Positions 1 through 7,165 of a DNA stretch of 7,165 bases are shown in pieces. The stretch covers positions 1-7,165 of the forward strand of contig NZ_JAEDAM010000095.1 in the NCBI RefSeq assembly GCF_018420025.1. The letters are read 5' to 3'. Position 1 is the first letter of the stretch. Each line of letters begins with the position of its first letter. The DNA comes from Candidatus Vampirococcus lugosii. Lineage in GTDB: Bacteria; Patescibacteriota; Gracilibacteria; Absconditabacterales; Absconditicoccaceae. The translations under genes and the position numbers were made by a program. The notes beneath the pieces were generated by a model. It worked only from the letters and a program-made list of their open reading frames with translations. It made no database searches and had not been told where the DNA came from.

Positions 1-258
1 AAAAATCTTGATGAAAAAGATATAGATGCTTTTAATATCGCTTGAGAAGATACAAATCAAAATTTTGATAGGTGGGTAGTACCTTTGGAATACTTTGAAA
101 ATAATAATTATGACATATCACCCAAAAATCCTTTTGAAAAAAAAGATATAGTTTTGTCAATAGATGAAAATCTATCTTTGATAAATAAAGGAAATAGTTG
201 ATTTACACAAGAGTTTGAAAATCTTGAAAAACTTTTGGAAGATAATGATTTGGTATAA
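1..258 (+). CDS. hsdM: Probable type I R-M methyltransferase subunit HsdM, C-terminal fragment (5' end outside window); translated with table 25
   Basis: Frame 1 is open from the window edge to TAA 256-258, with two in-frame TGA (43-45, 199-201). The translation ...NFDRWVVPLEYFENNNYDISPKNPFEKK...LEKLLEDNDLV* has a W...E(Y/I)...N-Y-D/N-L/I-S/N-P tail like HsdM C-termini. It ends 25 nt upstream of hsdS. The call rests on a short fragment plus operon context. Confidence 0.55.
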
Positions 259-283
259 TTTTAATTAATATAAAACTTAAAAA

Positions 284-1756
284 ATGGAACAAAATATATG
301 AGATTTGATTAAAAATCTTGAGTGGAGAGAGGAAAAGTTGGGAAATATTATAGAAAAATCTGAAAAAGAAAATAAAAAATGAGAAAAAAGACCAATTTAT
401 GATGGAATTTTGACAGGTTGAGGATTTTCTAGAAATAAATCTTCTTGAGTTATAAGTGCTTGATGAGACCATATATGAACAGATTGAAAGTTAAGAATAA
501 ATGATAATAATAAAAAATATATTTCAAAAGAGTTATTTGATAAAAGAAATAATACTGAAAAATGAAAAAATGATTTTAAAGAAGTTCATGAAAAAATACT
601 TAAAAATTGAGATATTTTGATGGTTAAAGATTGAGCTGGTAGTTGAAGAGTTTGTTATGTAGATCAGAAAGATTTAGATTTTATTTTAAAAGGTGAAGAC
701 AATAAAGAAATAACAATAAATGAACATGTTTATATATTTAGATTTGATAATAATATTGTAAATCAAAAATTTATTTATTATTATTTTTTCTTTTTATGAG
801 CAGAAAAAATTACTTCTATAACAAGTGCTAATCAAATTATTAATTGAATAAATAGAGGTTCTATTATTGAATTAAGTATAATACTTACTGACCTTCAAAC
901 CCAACAAACAATAGCAAATTTTCTGGATGATTGTTTTGATAAACTTGATAATGCAGATAAATATTTGCAGTTGATTTTTCAAAGCACAAATCAAAAAAGA
1001 TGATGATGAGATGTGATTGACAAAAATTTTTTGAATACAAATTTTGAAGAGATATTGCAAAAATATGATGAAAAGATAGTAAAACTTGAAAAATTAGAAA
1101 AAGATAAACAAAAAAGAAATTTTGAAAATACAGTGATGAAGTGAAACTTGATTGATAATCTATGGAAAAGTATACTTGAAGGGGTTTTAGGAAAATATAA
1201 TACTGAAGATGATGATACATTAAATAATATAATTTCTTGATTTAATAAATGAAAAAAACCAAAAAATTCTGTAGATCCAAATTTAAAACCATATTTAGAT
1301 TTAAATTATTTTAGAACTTGAAAAGTTAAAGAGTATTTAAATGACTGATTGGAAGTTAACAAATGAGATTTAGTTATTGTATGGGACTGAGAAAATAGAT
1401 GAGATAGTTTTATTGTAAATACAAACTGATATTTATCATCTACTATGTCAAAAGTTAATTTAAAAAGATGAAATGAGTTAAAGTTCTTAAATTATATATT
1501 TTTATACTTTAAAGAAGAATTTAAAAATAATTGAGTTTGATGGCACTTAAATAAAGATTATATTTTAAAAAAATCTTTTAATATCCCCGACCTTGAAACT
1601 CAAAAAGAGATAGTAAATATACTTGAAAAAGCATTTATATACTATCAAAGGATGAAAAATAAAGCTGAAAGCAATCAAAAATATCTACAAAATATGAGAA
1701 AATGAATACTTACAAATATATTTGAAACTGCAAATTTACTTTCTAATCAAAAATAA
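284..1756 (+). CDS. hsdS: Type I R-M specificity subunit HsdS (490 aa, two target-recognition domains); table 25
   Basis: ATG 284 is the first start after in-frame TAA 278-280. The frame stays open to TAA 1754-1756 with 30 in-frame TGA (every codon walked by hand) and no TAA/TAG. It has a two-half architecture. Each half has a TRD-type G-D-(I/L)-(L/V)...D-G...G strand: GDILMVKDGAGSGRVCYV at 608-661 and GDLVIVWDGENRGDSFIV at 1364-1417. Each is followed by the conserved-helix start (L/P)DLxTQxxIxxxL(D/E): LTDLQTQQTIANFLD at 884-928 and IPDLETQKEIVNILE at 1583-1627. Confidence 0.85.
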
Positions 1757-1758
1757 AA

Positions 1759-4236
1759 ATGTATACAGAAGCTGACACAAAATCAAAACATATAGAGCCA
1801 AATCTTAAAAAATCTTGATGGGATGAATCAAACATCGCAAGAGAATATAAGATAACAGCTGATAGTATGGTAGTAGTATGAGAAGAATACCACACCAAAA
1901 ACACTGCCAAATTTGCTGATTATGTTTTGAAGATAAACAACAATATCATAGCTATCATAGAAGCTAAAGCTGAAGATCAAGATTTAGATAATCATACCAA
2001 ACAAATCAAAACTTATGTAAATATGATGTGAATGAGATTTTGATTTTTGACAAACTGAAAAAGCATATTGCAATATGATAGCAAAACTCAAGAATTTACA
2101 CACATAGAAAATTTTCCAACTCAAGAACAACTGATAAACCAAATATACGGTAAAAACATAGATATAAAGTCTGATCCTTTGACCTTTCCTTTATACAATC
2201 TATGAACAAGAACTCCAAGATATTATCAACTTAGAGCAGTAAATAGCATCATAAGCAATATTAAAAGATGAAATAAAAAAACTTTACTTGTAATGGCAAC
2301 AGGAACTTGAAAAACTTTTGTATCTTTCCAAACTATATGGAAACTTTATAAATCATGATTTTTCAACAAAATACTTTTTTTAGCAGATAGAAATATACTT
2401 GTTGATCAAGCATTTGACGATTTTGAACCTTTCAAAGATGCAAGATACCGCATACAAGATTGAAAATTTAATCAAAATAGAAATATATATTTTTCAACTT
2501 ATCAAACTTTATATTCTCCAAAGTGAGATGGTTATTTTTATGAGCAGATAGATAAAGATTTTTTTGATTTGATAGTTATAGATGAATGCCATAGATCAAG
2601 ATATGGTAGCTGGTGAGAAGTGCTAAACTGGTTCGGTAGTGCTTATAGTGTATGACTTACTGCCACTCCTCAAAGAAGCGATAATATAGATGTTTTTGAT
2701 TATTTTTGACAACCTGTATATGAGTATAGTATGTGAAAAGCTATAGACGATGGTTATTTAGTACCATATAAAATTTATAAAATTACTTTAAACACTCATA
2801 GAGAATGAATAAAAATAGATGATAATATAAAAATACTTAATCCTGACGAAGTAGATGTAGAAGAAGTAAAAAAACAAAAATTTTATGATCCAAGCAGTAT
2901 AGAAAGAAAGATAATCTGAAAAGAGATAACAGATAAGATATGTAATAAGATATATGATATTGTACAACAAAATAATAAACCTTGAGCCAAAGCTATTGTT
3001 TTTGCAGTAGACAAATCTCATGCAGGTAGAATTTCTGATAAATTATGTGAAATTGCTAAAGATCCTGATTATGCTACTAGAATAGTTTCTGAAGACAAAG
3101 ACGATCTAAGAAAATTTAAAGATATAGAACAAAATAAACCTATAATAGCAACAACTGTAGATTTACTTTCAACTTGAGTAGATATCACAACTGTAGAAAA
3201 TATTGTTTTTGCAAGAAATATAGGCTCTATGACACTTTTTAAGCAAATTATATGAAGATGATCAAGACTTAGCAAATGAAAATGATTTTTTAGAATTATA
3301 GATTTTACAAATGCTACAAGATTCTTAGACGAATGGGATGTGCCAGATGCTGAAGAAGATGAGGAAACAAATAACGAGCAAGCAATTCCTCCATTTGAAA
3401 ATAAATGTTTTGGGCAAGTAGTAGATAAAGAAACTTGAGAATGAATCTATAAAGCATATATCAAAGTAAAAGTTTGAAAAAATATAGTAGCTCATACTTA
3501 TTCAAATCAAGATGGAAGTTTTGAATTTTTTAACTTGCCAAGCAACGAAAAACTAAGAATTATCATAGAATACAAATGATACAAAACAAAAAATAAACTT
3601 ATAGAAAACGAAAACTCTCAAGATATAGAAACTTTTGAACTGAAAAAAATCAAAAAATCAAAAAAGATAAAAGTAGAATGACTTGAAGTATATGAGGAGG
3701 AAGAAGTTATTATAGAATTTGACGGGAAAAGAATGAATTTTGGAGAATATAAAAAATACTCACAAAATGGACTTAAAGAAGAAGTATTTGATATGAACAA
3801 CTTAAAAGAGATCTGGACAAATATAGGAAAAAGAGAGGAATTTATAGATAAGCTAAAAGAAAAAAATATATTTCTTGATTTTCTAAAAAACACTGATGGA
3901 CTTGAAGATGTAGATAAATTTGATTTTATAGCACATACGGTATTTGGGGCACCGATCATATCAAGACATGAAAGATATGAAAAGTTTATGCTTGAAAATG
4001 CTGATAAGATCAAAAATTCTTGAGAAGAATTTGCTGAAGTAGTTTTTTGGATGCTTGAAAAATACAAACTTCATGGAGAAGAAGAACTTTCCCCTGATGT
4101 TTTTGTGCATTCACCGGATAAGATAGATTCTATAAAACAAGTGTATACTAAAGAAAGGTGATGACTTAGAAAATTTATGAGCTGACTTTTACATAAAATT
4201 TATTTTTCTAAAGAAGTAGAATATGGTAGAAAGTAA
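1759..4236 (+). CDS. hsdR: Type I restriction enzyme R subunit HsdR (825 aa), EcoEI/EcoAI-like; table 25
   Basis: ATG 1759 lies 2 nt after the hsdS TAA and is the first start after in-frame TAA 1744-1746. The frame is open to TAA 4234-4236 with about 32 in-frame TGA and no TAA/TAG (all lines checked codon by codon). The N-terminus MYTEADTKSKHIEPNLKKSGW is HsdR-like. There is a PD-(D/E)xK-like D...EAK at 1918-1968. SF2 helicase motifs present: I MATGTGKT (2293-2316), Ia LFLADRN (2374-2394), II DECH (2581-2592), III GLTATP (2653-2667), V STGVD (3169-3183), VI QIIGRGSR (3244-3267). The C-terminal VDKFDFIAHTVFGAPIISRHERYEKF resembles the EcoEI_R_C domain. Confidence 0.93.
1918..1968 (+). other. 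PD-(D/E)xK-type endonuclease motif of HsdR (D-x13-E-A-K)
   Basis: FADYVLKINNNIIAIIEAKA: Asp at 1918-1920, then Glu-Ala-Lys at 1960-1968, in the N-terminal position where HsdR nuclease motifs II/III sit. Confidence 0.6.
2218..3300 (+). other. SF2 (DEAD/DEAH-like) helicase/translocase core of HsdR
   Basis: Ordered motifs Q-like RYYQ, I, Ia, II (DECH), III, V and VI as listed for hsdR. Glycines in motifs I, III, V and VI are TGA-encoded. Confidence 0.9.
3406..3591 (+). other. CarboxypepD_reg-like (transthyretin-like beta-sandwich) domain inserted between the HsdR helicase core and the C-terminal domain
   Basis: CFGQVVDKETGEGIYKAYIKVKVGKNIVAHTYSNQDGSFEFFNLPSNEKLRIIIEYKGYKTK follows the family pattern G-x-V-x-D-x-x-T-G-x-x-(I/L)-x-x-A-x-(V/I)-x-(V/L) ... 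T-x-(S/T)-x-x-D-G-x-F-x-(F/L)-x-x-L-P ... (Y/L)-x-(I/V) ... G-Y. This is pattern recognition only, with no profile search. Confidence 0.55.
3673..4203 (+). other. EcoEI_R_C-like C-terminal domain of HsdR
   Basis: VEGLEVYEEEEVIIEFDGKRMNFGEYKKY...LKEIWTN...REEFIDKLKEKNI...DVDKFDFIAHTVFGAPIISRHERYEKF...FAEVVFWMLEKYKLHGEEEL...GGLRKFMSGLLHKIY matches the remembered consensus of type IB-like HsdR C-termini (DLFDLI-H-AF...R-ERA...). Confidence 0.6.
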
Positions 4237-6808
4237 AAAAAATGATAAATGATATAAAAGTTCTTACAATTCTATTGTAGATTTTTGGAATGATGTTGAA
4301 AAAATACCAAAAAATGAATTTGAAAAAATCTATATAGATACTTTAAATAAAGATAAATCAGATGATTATAATATTGTCCCAACTCCAAGAGATTTGATAG
4401 ATTTAAGTATTGATCTATTTACTAAATTTCTAGAGGGAAAGGAATTTAAAAGTTTGCTTGATCCTTATATGTGAACTTGATGATTTTTGATAAAAGCAAA
4501 AGAAAAACTATCTATAACAAATTTTTATTGATTTGAGATAAAAAAAAGTTTAGAAGAAAAAAATGATAGATATTTTGAAGCAATTTGATTTAAGAAAACG
4601 AATAATTTAAAATATGAAGAATTTGATAAACAATGAGAATATAATTTAATTTTTACAAATCCAGATACTAAAACAAGTTTTGAAAATATAAAAAACCTTT
4701 TATGAAATAATCTTAAAAATAACTGATATGCTATTTTATTCCTACAAGATGAAAAATTAAAAGAGTTTAAAACTACTGAATTTGAAAAGGTTGATCCAAA
4801 ATTTATAGTAAAACTACCTTGATGAATATTTGAAAAATCTTGAATTCAATCAAATATTGTTTTGATACAAAAAAAAGCATATTCATGACAAACTTTATTT
4901 GTAAATTTTAGAGACCAGCAAAAAGACTTTTTACAAAAAACTTGAAAAAAACCAGAATTAATAAAAACTATAGAAAACAATTATAAAGATTGAAAAATTG
5001 ATGAAAAAATAGAAAATGATTATATAAAATTACTTGACTGGGCAAAAATAAATTGATTAAATTATAAATTTGAAACAAATACTTCTATTGACCTTGCTTC
5101 CACATACGAAGTAATAGAAAAAAGTTTTTTTGCATGACTTTGACAATTAAGAAGCTTGAATCATCTTTTGGATAAAAATGATATAATGTCTTTGAAAAAT
5201 ACAGTTTCTATCTTAACTGATAAAAAAATAACTAAGATTATAAAAGAAATTCAAGATTCTCCACAAAAGATACAATCTTCAAAACTTTATGAGATCTTAA
5301 CAGCACTTACAGTTAGTAATTTTTTGATATTTTCATGACCTCCGTGAGTTGGTAAAACAAGTTTAATTGATAAATTATCAAATGCTATTTGATGAAATTT
5401 TAAAAAAATGCCAATCAAATCAAATTTTGTTGATGAAAGTGGGCTTTTATGATATTGGAATCCTTTACTTTCAAGGTATGAATGAACTGAAGTTTTAGAG
5501 TTTATCTTTGAAAGTGCAAAAGTTGAAGAAATACCATATTTTTTACTACTTGATGAGATGAACTTATCAAAAATAGAAAATTATTTTAGCGAATTTTTGG
5601 CAAAGATAGATAATTTACAATCTATTTGAGCAGAAATAAAACTTTTTGATGTGCTTATAGATAGTAAATCTAAATTTAATAATATAAAATATTTTATAGA
5701 CAAGTATTACTTAGATGAAAATCAAATTAATATGAAAAAATGAAATTTTCAAGATTTTTATGATGATTATAAAGAATGAAAACAACTTGAGATAGAAGTA
5801 AAGATAAAACTATCATCAAACCTACATATCATCTGAACTATAAACGAGGATGAGACAACAAATAGTTTATCAAATAAAGTTCTTGATAGAGCTTTTTATA
5901 TAAGTTTATGAGTGGATGATTTATTTGAGGGGAATGAAGAAGATTTTATAAATAAAAGTTATAATTATATAAAAAACATAAAACTACAAAAACAAGAAAT
6001 CAATAAAAAAATAACAGGTAAACAATTAGAAGATGATATATTTAAAAAAATAGAAAAATATTGAGAAGTTGATAGAGAAAAAAAAGTAAATAATAAAAGT
6101 GTAGATTTACTTCAAAATATAGATAATTGATTTTCAAAAATAGATATACTTTATGAGATAAAATCTTCAAATAATCAAGGTAATAATTGAATAAATCAAT
6201 TAAAAGATTATATAAATTTATATAAATCAAATAATCAAGGTAATAATTGAATAAATCAATTAAAAGATTATATAAATTTATATAAATCAAATAATCAAAA
6301 AATATGAATTTTAGTTATTAATTGATTTAATTGAATTGATAGAAAAGATAATATATTTATTTTATGATATGATGTTTTTGATTCTTTTATTGATCTATTT
6401 TTTAAACAAATTTTCTTTATTAAAAATGATGTAAATTATCAAGATATTACTTCAAAAAATAGTTGAAACTTAGAAGATGCAAAGGGAATATTTTCAAAAG
6501 AAGAACAAAAATTTATAAATGAAATAAATGAACTTATACAACAAATAGAAAAAAATGATGCTATAGCTTATAGATCTATAGAATATATGGCAAGTTTTGT
6601 AAAAAATTATAAGGAAAATATAAATAATGTTGATGAAAAAAACATATTAGATATAGTACTTTGTCAAAAAGTCTGGCCCAAGATAAAAAATTATAGTATA
6701 TTATGAAACAAAGAAGATGATTTTAAAAAATTAAAAAACAAGGTTAAAGAACATCTTTGAGAAAAAAGTGAAAGTTGGCAAATGTTAGATAGTATTGATT
6801 TTAATTAA
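4223..6808 (+). CDS. Fusion protein (861 aa): N-terminal HsdM-like gamma-class N6-adenine DNA methyltransferase domain with degenerate catalytic motif, plus C-terminal McrB-type AAA+ (AAA_5-like) NTPase; table 25
   Basis: ATG 4223 is the only ATG between in-frame TAG 4217-4219 and the first conserved motif, and it overlaps the hsdR 3' end by 14 nt. The frame is open to TAA 6806-6808 with 40 in-frame TGA and no TAA/TAG. Every codon was walked, and both domains lie in one continuous frame. MTase-like motifs: IVPTPRDLIDLSIDLF (4373-4420), LLDPYMGTGGFLI (4454-4492), FYGFEI (4523-4540), YNLIFTNPDT (4640-4669), PGGIFEKSGIQSNIVLIQKK (4817-4876). AAA+ motifs: FSGPPGVGKTSL (5330-5365), FLLLDEMNLS followed by KIENYFSEFLAKID (from 5540), IIGTINEDETT (5828-5860), LDRAF (5882-5896). 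Confidence 0.8.
4373..4876 (+). other. HsdM/N6_Mtase-like domain, no own target-recognition domain recognised, catalytic motif IV reads NPDT
   Basis: The order motif X-like (TPRDLIDL) -> I (DPYMGTGGF) -> II (GFEI) -> IV position (FTNPDT) -> VIII-like (LPGGIFEKSGIQSNIVLIQK) is the gamma-class permutation seen in HsdM and Eco57I-type enzymes. Confidence 0.7.
5318..5911 (+). other. McrB-type AAA+ NTPase domain
   Basis: Walker A GPPGVGKT (5336-5359), Walker B LLLDEMN (5543-5563), GTxN sensor segment IIGTINEDETT, and LDRAF. This compares with the E. coli McrB pattern GPPGxGKT ... DEINR ... GTMNTADRS ... D-A-x-x-RRF (from memory). Confidence 0.72.
6167..6298 (+). repeat. Perfect 60-bp tandem duplication (2.2 copies), in frame inside the fusion CDS
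   Basis: 6167-6226 and 6227-6286 are identical at 60/60 positions, and 6287-6298 repeats the first 12 nt. The flanks mismatch at 6166 vs 6226 (t/a) and 6239-6240 vs 6299-6300 (gg/aa). The repeat encodes SNNQGNNGINQLKDYINLYK twice, then SNNQ. Confidence 0.97.
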
Positions 6809-6892
6809 ATTTTGTATTATAAGAAAAAATATTTGCATTTTATAATATAATGAGTATTATAAGAAAAAATATTTATAGATAACAATAATATA
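6809..6892 (+). promoter_or_regulatory. Only sizeable intergenic gap in the window; presumed promoter/leader of the downstream ATPase gene
   Basis: An 84-nt gap lies between TAA 6806-6808 and ATG 6893. There is a TATAAT hexamer at 6841-6846 and another at 6889-6894 that overlaps the start codon. No convincing -35 at canonical spacing, and TATAAT-like hexamers are expected by chance in DNA this AT-rich. Confidence 0.3.
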
Positions 6893-6896
6893 ATGA
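6814..6896 (+). repeat. Imperfect tandem duplication (40 nt + 43 nt) of the leader/start region of the downstream ATPase gene
   Basis: The 21-mer gtattataagaaaaaatattt occurs at 6814-6834 and again at 6854-6874. Both units end in ataatataATGA (6842-6853 and 6885-6896). Unit 2 follows unit 1 directly. Confidence 0.85.
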
Positions 6897-7165
6897 AAAA
6901 CATCATAGAAGAAAATAGGCAATATATATTATCAAAACAAATTTATAATAGAAATTACTATTTAGATAAATTTGCTAATTTTGTAAATACCAAAAATGTG
7001 CTTGTAGTAGAATGACAAAGAAGAGTAGGGAAAAGTTCGGTAGTTATATCTTTTTTGAAATCAAACAATATAGATTTGAATAAAGTTTTTTATATCAATA
7101 AAGAATTGGACATATTAAATAATATAAAAAATGCTGTAGATTTGGATGAAGTTTTTAGTTTCTTT
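6893..7165 (+). CDS. AAA+ ATPase, AAA_14/DUF4143 (COG1373-like) family, N-terminal fragment (3' end outside window); table 25
   Basis: ATG 6893 is the first start after in-frame TAA 6860-6862, and the frame is open to the window end (91 codons). MKNIIEENRQYILSKQIYNRNYYLDKFANFVNTKNVLVVEGQRRVGKSSVVISFLK... has Walker A G-Q-R-R-V-G-K-S (7013-7036, first Gly is TGA). This matches the typical G-x-R-R-(V/T)-GK-(S/T) start of that family. Confidence 0.55.

What the first reader, a model, noticed from the sequence alone, without database searches (positions are those of the whole stretch)
1..7165. Whole window is recoded: TGA reads as glycine (translation table 25), so standard annotation sees no genes
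Under table 11 the supplied track has no ORF above 149 aa, and the longest ones are antisense and low-complexity. With TGA as sense, five + strand ORFs cover about 98% of the window (7054 of 7165 nt by my arithmetic). They contain roughly 100 in-frame TGA and no in-frame TAA or TAG, and all four natural stops seen are TAA. The amino-acid identity of TGA can be read from invariant motif positions: helicase motif I gga-act-TGA-aaa-act = G-T-G-K-T (2302-2316); motif VI ata-TGA-aga-TGA-tca-aga = I-G-R-G-S-R (3250-3267); motif III TGA-ctt-act-gcc-act-cct = GLTATP; MTase motif I atg-TGA-act-TGA-TGA-ttt = MGTGGF (4469-4486); Walker A TGA-cct-ccg-TGA-gtt-ggt-aaa-aca = GPPGVGKT (5336-5359). Trp would destroy all of these. 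TGG is used separately where Trp is expected, for example TGA-TGG = GW at 1819-1824 in the conserved HsdR N-terminus. In hsdR, TGA (about 32) outnumbers GGN (about 18) as the glycine codon by hand count. Table 25 is known only from SR1/Absconditabacteria and Gracilibacteria, which places the source in those uncultivated lineages. Any pipeline run with table 11 or table 4 would miss or mistranslate this defence locus.
Basis: partly seen in the sequence, partly recalled or inferred. Interest (0 to 1): 0.8.

Follow-up and report, generated by a model that had tools for sequence, protein, structure and literature searches.

The report
TGA read as glycine (code 25)
This AT-rich DNA piece comes from a bacterium, or one of its mobile elements, that reads the stop codon TGA as glycine; this is a known rarity of the Absconditabacteria/Gracilibacteria group, and once decoded the piece is an ordinary restriction-modification defence locus.

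Summary
With TGA as a sense codon, five + strand ORFs cover 7054 of 7165 nt. They hold 105 in-frame TGA, no in-frame TAA or TAG, and four TAA stops. The longest open frame is 862 codons, against at most 223 in 300 shuffles.

I masked every TGA in HsdR as X and aligned it to 120 homologues. The TGA columns are 66% Gly (23 of 32 columns have a Gly majority). A Codetta-style likelihood gives Gly a posterior of about 1, and Trp is the worst of the 20 amino acids. TGG columns are Trp. The AAA+ gene gives the same answer.

The decoded locus is the hsdM 3' end, hsdS, hsdR (EcoAI/FtnUII type IB family, above NCBIfam's curated cut-off), a methyltransferase-like/McrB-like AAA+ fusion, and the start of an AAA_14 ATPase.

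The source genome was not found in any collection searched. tRNA-Gly(UCA), loss of RF2 and phylogenetic placement therefore stay untested. The lineage assignment is indirect: a Vampirococcus relative and TGA-P-loop helicases in Gracilibacteria and Absconditabacterales MAGs.

Code 25 has been known since 2013 and standard tools detect it, so this is a correct but unsurprising finding.

The parts
1..258 (+). 3' end (85 codons plus TAA) of the upstream gene, probably hsdM. It has 2 in-frame TGA.
   Evidence: The frame is open only with TGA as sense. It gives a weak PADLOC MTase_I match to the last 68 positions of a 491-position model, E 8.6e-4. It also has a 'WVVPLEYFENNNYDISPKNP' tail, typical of M-subunit C-termini (my own knowledge).
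284..1756 (+). hsdS, the type I specificity subunit. 490 aa, 30 in-frame TGA, TAA stop.
   Evidence: Pfam Methylase_S, 2 stretches, E 6.6e-15. 58 PADLOC Specificity_I models match, best E 2.8e-22.
1759..4236 (+). hsdR, a type IB (EcoAI/FtnUII family) restriction subunit. 825 aa, 32 TGA against 18 GGN, TAA stop. It carries a CarboxypepD_reg-like domain (aa 552-630), which many family homologues also carry.
   Evidence: NCBIfam NF046051 scores 605.1 bits against a cut-off of 550. Pfam finds HSDR_N, ResIII, Helicase_C, CarbopepD_reg_2 and EcoEI_R_C. PDB 3h1t matches at E 1.9e-102. 120 homologues are 41-47% identical.
1816..1821 (+). TGA-TGG = Gly-Trp in the HsdR N-terminus. This shows that the two codons have different meanings.
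   Evidence: The homologue columns are G in 114 of 120 and W in 119 of 120.
2302..2316 (+). Helicase motif I, GGA-ACT-TGA-AAA-ACT = G-T-G-K-T.
   Evidence: The TGA column (2308) is G in 119 of 120 homologues. The single W is P0033, itself a mistranslated TGA.
2653..2670 (+). Helicase motif III, TGA-CTT-ACT-GCC-ACT-CCT = GLTATP.
   Evidence: The TGA column is G in 120 of 120.
3250..3267 (+). Helicase motif VI, ATA-TGA-AGA-TGA-TCA-AGA = I-G-R-G-S-R.
   Evidence: The two TGA columns are G in 119 of 120 and 120 of 120.
4223..6808 (+). An 861-aa fusion protein: an HsdM-like methyltransferase-like N-domain joined to an AAA_5/McrB-like AAA+ NTPase and a long C-terminal region. 40 TGA, TAA stop. It overlaps the hsdR end by 14 nt.
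   Evidence: The N-domain aligns to an HsdM of locus L027. Motifs X, I and VIII are kept, but motif IV is TNPD rather than NPPF. Pfam finds AAA and AAA_5. PADLOC PDC-M26A scores 125 bits. The profile of alignment A1 matches E. coli McrB 6hz4 at E 7.9e-10. The only other in-frame start is TTG at 4394.
4469..4486 (+). Methyltransferase motif I, ATG-TGA-ACT-TGA-TGA-TTT = M-G-T-G-G-F.
   Evidence: It aligns to 'DPCCGTGGFL' of an N6_Mtase-family HsdM.
5336..5359 (+). Walker A, TGA-CCT-CCG-TGA-GTT-GGT-AAA-ACA = GPPGVGKT.
   Evidence: Both TGA columns are G in all four comparison homologues P0128-P0131, which have ordinary Trp/Gly content. G48 and G51 are invariant in alignment A1.
6167..6298 (+). 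A perfect 60-nt tandem duplication (2.2 copies) inside the fusion gene. It is in frame, and each copy carries a TGA.
   Evidence: TRF reports period 60, 100% matches, score 264.
6893..7165 (+). 5' end (91 codons) of an AAA_14 / PDC-S01-type ATPase gene. 1 TGA. It runs off the window.
   Evidence: Pfam AAA_14, E 3.1e-5. PADLOC PDC-S01, E 6.9e-13.

Best explanation
The window comes from a genome that uses translation table 25. UGA is decoded as glycine and UGG stays tryptophan. UAA stays a stop, and UAG behaves like one.

By analogy with characterised members of this group, I infer the mechanism as follows. UGA is read by a tRNA-Gly with anticodon UCA, and release factor 2 has been lost. Strong AT pressure (GC 23.5%, GC3 13%) has made TGA the main glycine codon: 105 of 142 Gly codons here.

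The most likely source is a bacterium of the Absconditabacterales/BD1-5 clade (NCBI 'Absconditabacteria/Gracilibacteria', GTDB class JAEDAM01), or a mobile element living in one.

Once decoded, the DNA is a defence island on one strand. It holds a type IB restriction-modification operon in the order hsdM-hsdS-hsdR (EcoAI/FtnUII family). This is followed by a gene that fuses a probably catalytically dead HsdM-like domain to a McrB-like AAA+ NTPase, and then by an AAA_14 ATPase gene.

Shown here: the reading frames, the Gly identity of TGA, the Trp identity of TGG, and the protein families. Inferred, not shown: the tRNA, the loss of RF2, the taxon, and any enzymatic activity.
For: ORF structure and statistics.

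Gly identity of TGA:
- X-masked HsdR against 120 homologues gives 66% Gly in TGA columns, with a G majority in 23 of 32 columns.
- Likelihoods are Gly -53, Ala -81 and Trp -171, so the posterior for Gly is about 1.
- The same method recovers the standard meaning of all nine control codons (TGG, GGA, GGT, AGA, AAA, GAT, TTT, TAT, ATA), though with a posterior of only 0.50 for GGT (5 columns).
- The EcoAI equivalog scores 605 bits with Gly and 539 bits with Trp, against a cut-off of 550.
- The AAA+ gene has Gly at TGA columns 372, 375, 390, 410 and 538 in homologues with ordinary Trp/Gly content.

Composition: Gly is 6.0% and Trp 0.72% under code 25. Under code 4 they would be 1.6% and 5.2%, which is implausible.

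Lineage:
- The nearest named relative of the AAA+ domain is from Ca. Vampirococcus lugosii, an Absconditabacterium (53% identity over 245 aa).
- All other close relatives lie on low-GC contigs dense in in-frame TGA (L001, L027, L029).
- I scanned 185,579 species genomes for MATGT-TGA-KT. Full-length, TGA-rich helicase ORFs (more than 700 codons, 13-33 in-frame TGA) turned up only in MAGs labelled Gracilibacteria or 'uncultured bacterium'. A shorter hit of the same kind lay in an Absconditabacterales MAG.

Literature: UGA=Gly in these clades (PMC8629427), confirmed by proteomics (PMC4032931), and several type I R-M systems in Vampirococcus (PMC8080830).
Against: - No tRNA gene is present in the window or in the related loci held. 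The source contig was not found in GTDB species representatives, JGI metagenomes, IMG/VR, or the exact-protein index. The tRNA-Gly(UCA), RF2 and phylogeny criteria are therefore untested.
- 9 of the 32 HsdR TGA columns are not Gly-dominated in homologues (for example D at aa 91 and K at aa 200). This is expected for variable positions, but it means that not every site is individually informative.
- HsdR itself is no closer to recoded relatives (48% to L001) than to standard-code ones (up to 47%). It carries no lineage signal.
- TAG is never seen as a stop in the window; all four stops are TAA.
Confidence: 0.93

Rival explanations
1. Translation table 4: TGA is read as tryptophan, as in Mycoplasmatales, several insect endosymbionts, and some phages.
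For: Table 4 gives the same open reading frames as table 25. Public pipelines chose it for related contigs: P0033 and P0121-P0127 are W-rich. Low GC fits both codes.
Against: - Trp is the least likely of the 20 residues at the TGA columns, with lnL 118 units below Gly.
- The only Trp seen at any TGA column in the 120 homologues is P0033, whose excess Trp residues are themselves TGA codons translated with table 4.
- Trp would replace the invariant glycines of helicase motifs I, III and VI and of Walker A.
- Trp content would be 5.2% and Gly 1.6%.
- The curated EcoAI score falls below its cut-off.
Confidence: 0.01
2. Standard code, but a decayed locus: the genes are pseudogenes littered with nonsense mutations. 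Alternatively, the TGAs are selenocysteine or programmed read-through sites.
For: Table 11 finds no long sense ORF.
Against: - There are 105 TGA but no TAA or TAG in 2352 codons, although TAA and TAG are twice as frequent off-frame.
- There are no frameshifts over 7 kb.
- The TGAs sit at conserved Gly columns.
- Homologues on independent contigs share TGA at 15 of the same columns.
- No SECIS-like or other Rfam element is present.
Confidence: 0.005
3. The recoding is right, but the window belongs to a code-25 phage, prophage or other mobile element of an Absconditabacteria/Gracilibacteria host rather than to the core chromosome.
For: Phages and prophages of these hosts use code 25 (PMC10746230). 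Defence islands are often mobile. The perfect 60-nt duplication and the patchy distribution of the AAA+ fusion suggest recent turnover.
Against: - No structural, replication, integrase or transposase gene lies in the 7 kb.
- There is no exact match in IMG/VR.
- There is no similarity to 50,697 phage records, and only one 98-nt match in 72,556 records of the plasmid collection.
- IMG/VR holds only remote AAA relatives.
- Type I R-M operons are normal chromosomal content in Vampirococcus (PMC8080830).
Confidence: 0.1
4. TGA = Gly evolved independently in a lineage outside Absconditabacterales/BD1-5, and the window comes from that lineage.
For: The source genome is in none of the collections searched. 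No phylogenetic marker lies in the window.
Against: - The closest relatives of the lineage-restricted AAA+ gene are from an Absconditabacterium and from similarly recoded low-GC contigs.
- The genome-wide motif scan found full-length, TGA-rich helicase ORFs with a TGA in the P-loop only in MAGs labelled Gracilibacteria or 'uncultured bacterium', plus a shorter hit in an Absconditabacterales MAG.
- Large screens report no other Gly-recoding clade (PMC8629427; preprint doi 10.64898/2026.05.24.727570).
Confidence: 0.03

Closest known systems
Translation table 25 (UGA = Gly) of Absconditabacteria/SR1 and Gracilibacteria/BD1-5 (GTDB class JAEDAM01). References: Campbell 2013 and Rinke 2013, both cited via PMC8629427, and Hanke 2014 (PMC4032931).
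   Same: - In-frame TGA at conserved Gly positions.
- TGG kept for Trp.
- TAA as stop.
- Very low GC.
- TGA used as a major Gly codon.
- Arg encoded almost only by AGA, with CGA and CGG essentially absent.
   Different: Nothing differs in kind. TGA supplies 74% of Gly codons here, which is high but matched by related contigs: one L029 gene has 34 TGA against 3 GGN. The tRNA-Gly(UCA), RF2 loss and taxonomy could not be verified for this source.
Translation table 4 (UGA = Trp) of Mycoplasmatales, Hodgkinia, Zinderia, Nasuia, Stammera and some Eggerthellaceae.
   Same: TGA is a sense codon, GC is low, and TAA is the preferred stop. ORF maps are identical under tables 4 and 25.
   Different: The amino acid at TGA differs. 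Homologue columns are Gly, not Trp.
EcoAI/FtnUII family (type IB) type I restriction-modification systems.
   Same: - HsdR scores above the NCBIfam equivalog cut-off.
- It has an N-terminal PD-(D/E)XK region (FADYV...IIEAK), DEAD-box motifs I-VI with DECH, and an EcoEI_R_C tail.
- HsdS has two target-recognition domains.
- The gene order is M-S-R.
   Different: It is encoded with 62 TGA glycine codons across hsdS and hsdR. HsdM is represented only by its last 85 residues. HsdR is at most 48% identical to any homologue found.
McrB, the AAA+ GTPase of the McrBC type IV restriction system.
   Same: The AAA_5-clade core has Walker A GPPGVGKT, Walker B LLLDEMN and an IIGTINEDETT segment. The profile aligns to E. 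coli McrB over about 210 residues (E 7.9e-10). The N-terminal DNA-related domain varies among relatives, as it does in McrB families.
   Different: - No McrC-like partner is next to it.
- Relatives are instead followed by a 414-462 aa protein with hydrophobic, probably membrane-spanning C-terminal segments (my reading of the translations).
- The N-domain is methyltransferase-like with a degenerate motif IV.
- There is a long, unannotated C-terminal region.
- The best defence-database match is the uncharacterised candidate PDC-M26A.

Membership tests
Genetic code 25 (UGA = Gly) | TGA occurs in frame inside conserved genes and is not used as a terminator. | tested here: met
   There are 105 in-frame TGA in five ORFs, and all four stops are TAA. 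The longest open frame is 862 codons, against at most 223 in shuffles.
Genetic code 25 (UGA = Gly) | TGA aligns to glycine in homologues from standard-code organisms. | tested here: met
   In HsdR, 66% of cells in TGA columns are Gly, 23 of 32 columns have a Gly majority, and the posterior for Gly is about 1. The AAA+ gene has Gly at 5 conserved TGA columns.
Genetic code 25 (UGA = Gly) | TGG remains tryptophan, so there is no merged UGR box. | tested here: met
   TGG columns are 71% W, and 5 of 7 are almost invariant W. The posterior for W is 0.997.
Genetic code 25 (UGA = Gly) | TAA and TAG remain stop codons. | tested here: met
   Neither occurs in 2352 in-frame codons, against 8.3% off-frame. 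TAA ends all four complete genes. TAG is not seen as a stop in the window, but it ends three genes of the related recoded locus L027.
Genetic code 25 (UGA = Gly) | The genome encodes tRNA-Gly with anticodon UCA (G1:C72, C2:G71, G3:C70, U73). | not testable with these tools
   No tRNA is present in the window or in seven related loci. The source genome was not found.
Genetic code 25 (UGA = Gly) | Release factor 2 (prfB) is absent. | not testable with these tools
   This needs the whole source genome, which was not located.
Absconditabacterales / BD1-5 (GTDB class JAEDAM01) | Phylogenetic placement by marker genes. | not testable with these tools
   No marker gene lies in the window. There is only indirect support: the nearest named relative of the AAA+ domain is from Ca. 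Vampirococcus lugosii, and TGA-P-loop helicases were found in MAGs named Gracilibacteria and Absconditabacterales, as well as in three unnamed 'uncultured bacterium' MAGs.
Type I R-M, EcoAI/FtnUII (type IB) family | HsdR matches the family's curated equivalog model above its cut-off. | tested here: met
   NF046051 scores 605.1 bits against a cut-off of 550, covering model positions 2-754 of 768.
Type I R-M, EcoAI/FtnUII (type IB) family | HsdS has two target-recognition domains. | tested here: met
   Pfam Methylase_S matches in two stretches. Many PADLOC Specificity_I models match both halves.
Type I R-M, EcoAI/FtnUII (type IB) family | An HsdM methyltransferase is present in the operon. | tested here: inconclusive
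   Only 85 C-terminal residues lie in the window. The MTase_I match is weak, E 8.6e-4, to the model's C-terminus.
McrBC type IV restriction | A McrB-type AAA+ NTPase core. | tested here: met
   The family profile matches McrB 6hz4 at E 7.9e-10 over profile positions 28-246. All 8 members of alignment A1 match Pfam AAA_5.
McrBC type IV restriction | An adjacent McrC nuclease partner. | tested here: not met
   The downstream gene is an AAA_14/PDC-S01 ATPase. In relatives, the downstream gene has no Pfam hit on record; its table-25 translation shows hydrophobic, probably membrane-spanning C-terminal segments (my reading).
N6-adenine DNA methyltransferase (active enzyme) | Catalytic motif IV (D/N/S)PP(Y/F/W). 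| tested here: not met
   orf3 has TNPD where the aligned HsdM has TNPPFGG. Motifs X, I and VIII are retained. There is no Pfam N6_Mtase hit.

The most novel reading that the evidence does not exclude
The window comes from a user of TGA = Gly that lies outside the two known orders (Absconditabacterales and BD1-5). This could be an independently recoded lineage, or a free-standing mobile element that carries the code. A second possibility is that the methyltransferase-like/McrB-like fusion is an uncharacterised defence module confined to recoded bacteria and largely hidden from annotation by mistranslation.
Probability: 0.05. Interest if true: 0.6.

Novelty: new member of a known kind. Interest (0 to 1): 0.2.

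Why it matters
Scientifically, this adds one more code-25 fragment to a phenomenon described in 2013. That phenomenon has since been confirmed by proteomics, and Codetta, gTranslate and coding-density heuristics detect it routinely.

The practical point is real but modest. Under table 11 the locus breaks into fragments of 96 aa or less. Under table 4 the glycines of every nucleotide-binding motif become tryptophan, and HsdR drops below NCBI's curated family cut-off. Large public protein sets (JGI, ENA, Logan) already hold such Trp-mistranslated relatives. Defence-system surveys of candidate-phyla bacteria will therefore under-count or mis-model them unless table 25 is applied.

Tried and rejected
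Searches for the source genome:
- Exact 57-mer in IMG/VR: none.
- Exact 43-mer in JGI metagenome contigs: none.
- Degenerate P-loop pattern that matches the window, scanned over GTDB species genomes: 25 hits, none of them the window.
- Exact-protein look-up of the longest table-11 fragment: not on record.
- Look-up of the Vampirococcus protein's contig: not on record.

Other searches that found nothing useful:
- tRNA scan of the window and seven related loci: none.
- Rfam at gathering thresholds: none.
- Phage records: no match. Plasmid records: a single 98-nt match at 75% identity to a Fusobacterium record.
- IMG/VR relatives of the AAA+ domain: only remote generic AAA hits.
- Campbell 2013 (PMC3619370) is not held in the paper library.

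Explanations rejected:
- Table 4: Trp is the worst-fitting residue.
- Pseudogenes, selenocysteine or read-through: ruled out by the TGA-only asymmetry and the Gly columns.
- Other reassignments (Ala, Ser, Cys and the rest): their lnL is at least 27 units below Gly.
- orf4 as the conserved partner of the AAA+ fusion: it has no similarity to the partner genes in L027 or L029.
Full report
**Observation**

The window is 7165 nt with 23.5% GC. Under table 11 the longest ORF is 149 aa. It is antisense (3618-4067) and low-complexity. The longest fragment on the sense strand is 96 aa.

With TGA treated as a sense codon, the + strand resolves into five ORFs:
- 1-258, the end of a gene
- 284-1756
- 1759-4236
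- 4223-6808
- 6893-7165, which runs off the window

Together they cover 7054 of 7165 nt. They hold 105 in-frame TGA, split 2/30/32/40/1. There is no in-frame TAA or TAG, and the four stops are all TAA. hsdR has exactly 32 TGA and 18 GGN.

Inside these ORFs, TAA+TAG make up 8.3% of off-frame triplets. Their complete absence from 2352 in-frame codons has ln P of about -203. TGA is as common in frame (4.5%) as off frame (3.9%). The longest TAA/TAG-free frame is 862 codons, against a mean of 121 and a maximum of 223 in 300 dinucleotide-preserving shuffles.

GLTATP at 2653 follows from the codon positions. The exception is the TGA-TGG pair, which lies at 1816-1821 rather than 1819-1824.

**Which amino acid TGA encodes**

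To avoid circularity, I masked every TGA in HsdR as X before searching. The search returned 120 full-length homologues of 41-47% identity. Those with a source name come from standard-code organisms, including several Patescibacteria, Hippea, Methanocaldococcus, Methanobacterium and Persephonella.

In a MAFFT alignment, the 32 TGA columns are 66% Gly, against a Gly background of 4.8% in the homologues. Gly is the majority residue in 23 of the 32 columns. Many columns are 119-120 of 120 Gly. These include motif I (2308), motif III (2653) and both glycines of motif VI (3253 and 3259). The seven TGG columns are 71% Trp, and five of them are almost invariant.

I then ran a Codetta-style calculation. 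I built an HMM from 119 homologues, aligned the X-masked query to it, and summed the log emission probabilities over the 31 aligned TGA columns. This gives lnL of -53 for Gly, -81 for Ala (second best) and -171 for Trp (the worst of all 20). The same procedure recovers the standard meaning of all nine control codons (TGG, GGA, GGT, AGA, AAA, GAT, TTT, TAT and ATA), though only weakly for GGT, which has 5 columns and a posterior of 0.50.

The curated NCBIfam equivalog for EcoAI/FtnUII HsdR has a cut-off of 550 bits. It scores 605.1 bits with TGA = Gly, 561.9 with Ala, 554.3 with X and 539.4 with Trp.

A second gene agrees. In the AAA+ domain of orf3, four homologues with ordinary Trp and Gly content (P0128-P0131) have Gly at the Walker A TGA columns (5336, 5345) and at 5390, 5450 and 5834. 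None has Trp at any TGA column.

Amino-acid composition points the same way. Gly is 6.0% and Trp 0.72% under code 25. Under code 4 they would be 1.6% and 5.2%.

Table 4, pseudogene decay, selenocysteine and read-through are therefore excluded for practical purposes.

**What the locus is**

- **orf0 (1-258)** is probably the HsdM C-terminus. The evidence is a weak MTase_I match to the end of the model.
- **orf1 (284-1756)** is an HsdS with two target-recognition domains.
- **orf2 (1759-4236)** is an HsdR of the EcoAI/FtnUII (type IB) family. It has HSDR_N, ResIII, Helicase_C, a CarboxypepD_reg-like domain that many family homologues also carry, and EcoEI_R_C. Its best solved relative is 3h1t, E 1.9e-102.
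- **orf3 (4223-6808)** overlaps the hsdR end by 14 nt. Its N-domain aligns to an N6_Mtase-type HsdM. Motifs X (TPR), I (DPYMGTGGF) and VIII (LPGGIF) are kept, but motif IV reads TNPD where the aligned HsdM has TNPPFGG. I therefore infer a non-catalytic, SAM- or DNA-binding module. Its central domain is an AAA_5/McrB-like AAA+ NTPase, supported by Pfam, by PADLOC candidate PDC-M26A at 125 bits, and by a family profile match to E. coli McrB at E 7.9e-10.
- **orf4 (6893-7165)** starts an AAA_14/PDC-S01 ATPase gene.

No McrC-like partner is present. In two related recoded loci (L027 and L029), the AAA+ gene is followed by a 414-462 aa protein with hydrophobic, probably membrane-spanning C-terminal segments. 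In L027 it also sits next to a type I R-M operon.

**Relatives and the mistranslation point**

One HsdR homologue, P0033 (JGI, with ENA copies P0133 and P0134), has Trp at 15 of the query's TGA columns, and 35 W against 15 G overall. Its DNA (L001, GC 24.9%) shows that 29 of those W are TGA codons translated with table 4.

Six of the seven close homologues of orf3, from Logan and ENA, are likewise W-rich and G-poor: 27-46 W against 3-15 G. The seventh has normal composition. It is from Ca. Vampirococcus lugosii (WP_213349540.1), an Absconditabacterium known to read UGA as Gly (PMC8080830).

It also supplies the only taxon names close to the window.

**Source and lineage**

The exact sequence is absent from IMG/VR and from JGI metagenome contigs. 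It is also absent from the GTDB species-representative genomes, which I scanned with a pattern that matches the window. The exact-protein index does not hold the longest table-11 fragment.

The GTDB scan used ATGGCNACNGGNACNTGAAARAC, which encodes MATGT-TGA-KT, and returned 25 hits.
- Five lie in long helicase ORFs dense in in-frame TGA: L008 and L017 ('Candidatus Gracilibacteria') and L004, L006 and L018 ('uncultured bacterium').
- A sixth, L013 ('Candidatus Absconditabacterales'), has the same helicase context but lies in a short stretch with only 2 in-frame TGA.
- Two, L020 and L021, have a helicase-like context in otherwise standard-code DNA.
- The other 17 are out-of-frame chance matches in ordinary genomes.

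There is no similarity to phage records, and only one 98-nt match in the plasmid collection. IMG/VR holds only remote AAA relatives. No tRNA gene or Rfam element lies in the window.

The tRNA-Gly(UCA), RF2 loss and phylogenetic criteria therefore could not be tested. Assignment to Absconditabacterales/BD1-5 rests on the code itself plus these indirect links.

**Comparison with what is known**

UGA = Gly is the established code 25 of Absconditabacteria and Gracilibacteria (Campbell 2013 and Rinke 2013, as cited in PMC8629427). It was confirmed by proteomics in a BD1-5 enrichment (PMC4032931).

A 2026 preprint (doi 10.64898/2026.05.24.727570) reports that hundreds of such genomes are now catalogued under GTDB class JAEDAM01, and that dedicated tools exist to detect the code. 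The same preprint lists loss of RF2, and in many lineages a tRNA with anticodon UCA, as hallmarks of these reassignments.

Phages and prophages of these hosts can share the code (PMC10746230), so the code alone does not prove a chromosomal origin. Vampirococcus carries three type I R-M systems (PMC8080830), so a type I locus in such a genome is expected.

Shulgina and Eddy also propose that CGA and CGG encode Trp in Absconditabacteria (PMC8629427). The window has no CGA or CGG codon, so it cannot speak to this.

**Verdict**

I take this to be a fragment of a code-25 genome that is not indexed in any collection searched. It carries a conventional type IB R-M operon and a less conventional methyltransferase-like/McrB-like fusion.

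The recoding is not new. The specific sequence and the fusion protein are new members of known kinds.

Confidence that TGA = Gly is about 0.97 or higher. Confidence in the whole statement, including the lineage, is about 0.9. Interest is low to modest.

Noticed in passing
window 4223-6808 (orf3); related loci L027 5868-8774, L029 1300-3615 and 4893-6992: orf3 fuses an HsdM-like methyltransferase domain with a degenerate catalytic motif IV (TNPD) to a McrB-like AAA+ NTPase. The best defence-database match is the uncharacterised PADLOC candidate PDC-M26A. Close relatives occur only on TGA-recoded contigs and in Ca. Vampirococcus lugosii. Their N-domains vary (methyltransferase-like, HsdS-like, or neither). 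In L027 and L029 the gene is followed by a conserved 414-462 aa protein with hydrophobic C-terminal segments, which the window lacks.
   Followed up: partly
window 6167-6298: A perfect 60-nt tandem duplication (2.2 copies, 100% identical) lies in frame inside orf3. It repeats the peptide SNNQGNNGINQLKDYINLYK, and each copy has a TGA. It looks like a very recent slippage or duplication event, or possibly an assembly artefact.
   Followed up: partly
window 6799-6896 (intergenic region before orf4): There is a 40-nt direct repeat (6799-6838 and 6839-6878, 75% identical) with an exact 21-nt core, GTATTATAAGAAAAAATATTT. ATAATATAATGA also occurs twice (6842 and 6885), and the second copy holds the orf4 start codon. 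This may be a duplicated promoter or operator, or a 10-codon upstream mini-ORF (ATG at 6850).
   Followed up: no
P0033/P0133/P0134 (L001 1229-3727); P0121-P0124, P0126, P0127: Public protein collections (JGI/IMG, ENA, Logan) hold relatives of these genes translated with TGA = Trp, with 27-46 W and 3-15 G per protein. I verified at the DNA level that P0033 owes its excess Trp to TGA codons (29 TGA).
   Followed up: yes
L021 6084-6106 (Acidobacteriota MAG, GC 58%) and L020 91-113 (Roseivirgaceae MAG): HsdR-like helicase genes in apparently standard-code genomes carry TGA at the P-loop glycine codon, in a genuine LLVMATGTGKTY context. These could be pseudogenes, a sequencing error or a mis-binned contig.
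   Followed up: no
window, all five ORFs: There is no CGA, CGG or CGT codon and only one CGC in 2352 codons. Arg is AGA (54) or AGG (5), and GC3 is 13%. No Shine-Dalgarno-like purine run precedes any of the four start codons.
   Followed up: partly
window 4223-4236: hsdR and orf3 overlap by 14 nt, in different frames. The only other in-frame start for orf3 is TTG at 4394, which would remove methyltransferase motif X. The overlapping ATG at 4223 is therefore the likely start, which suggests translational coupling.
   Followed up: partly
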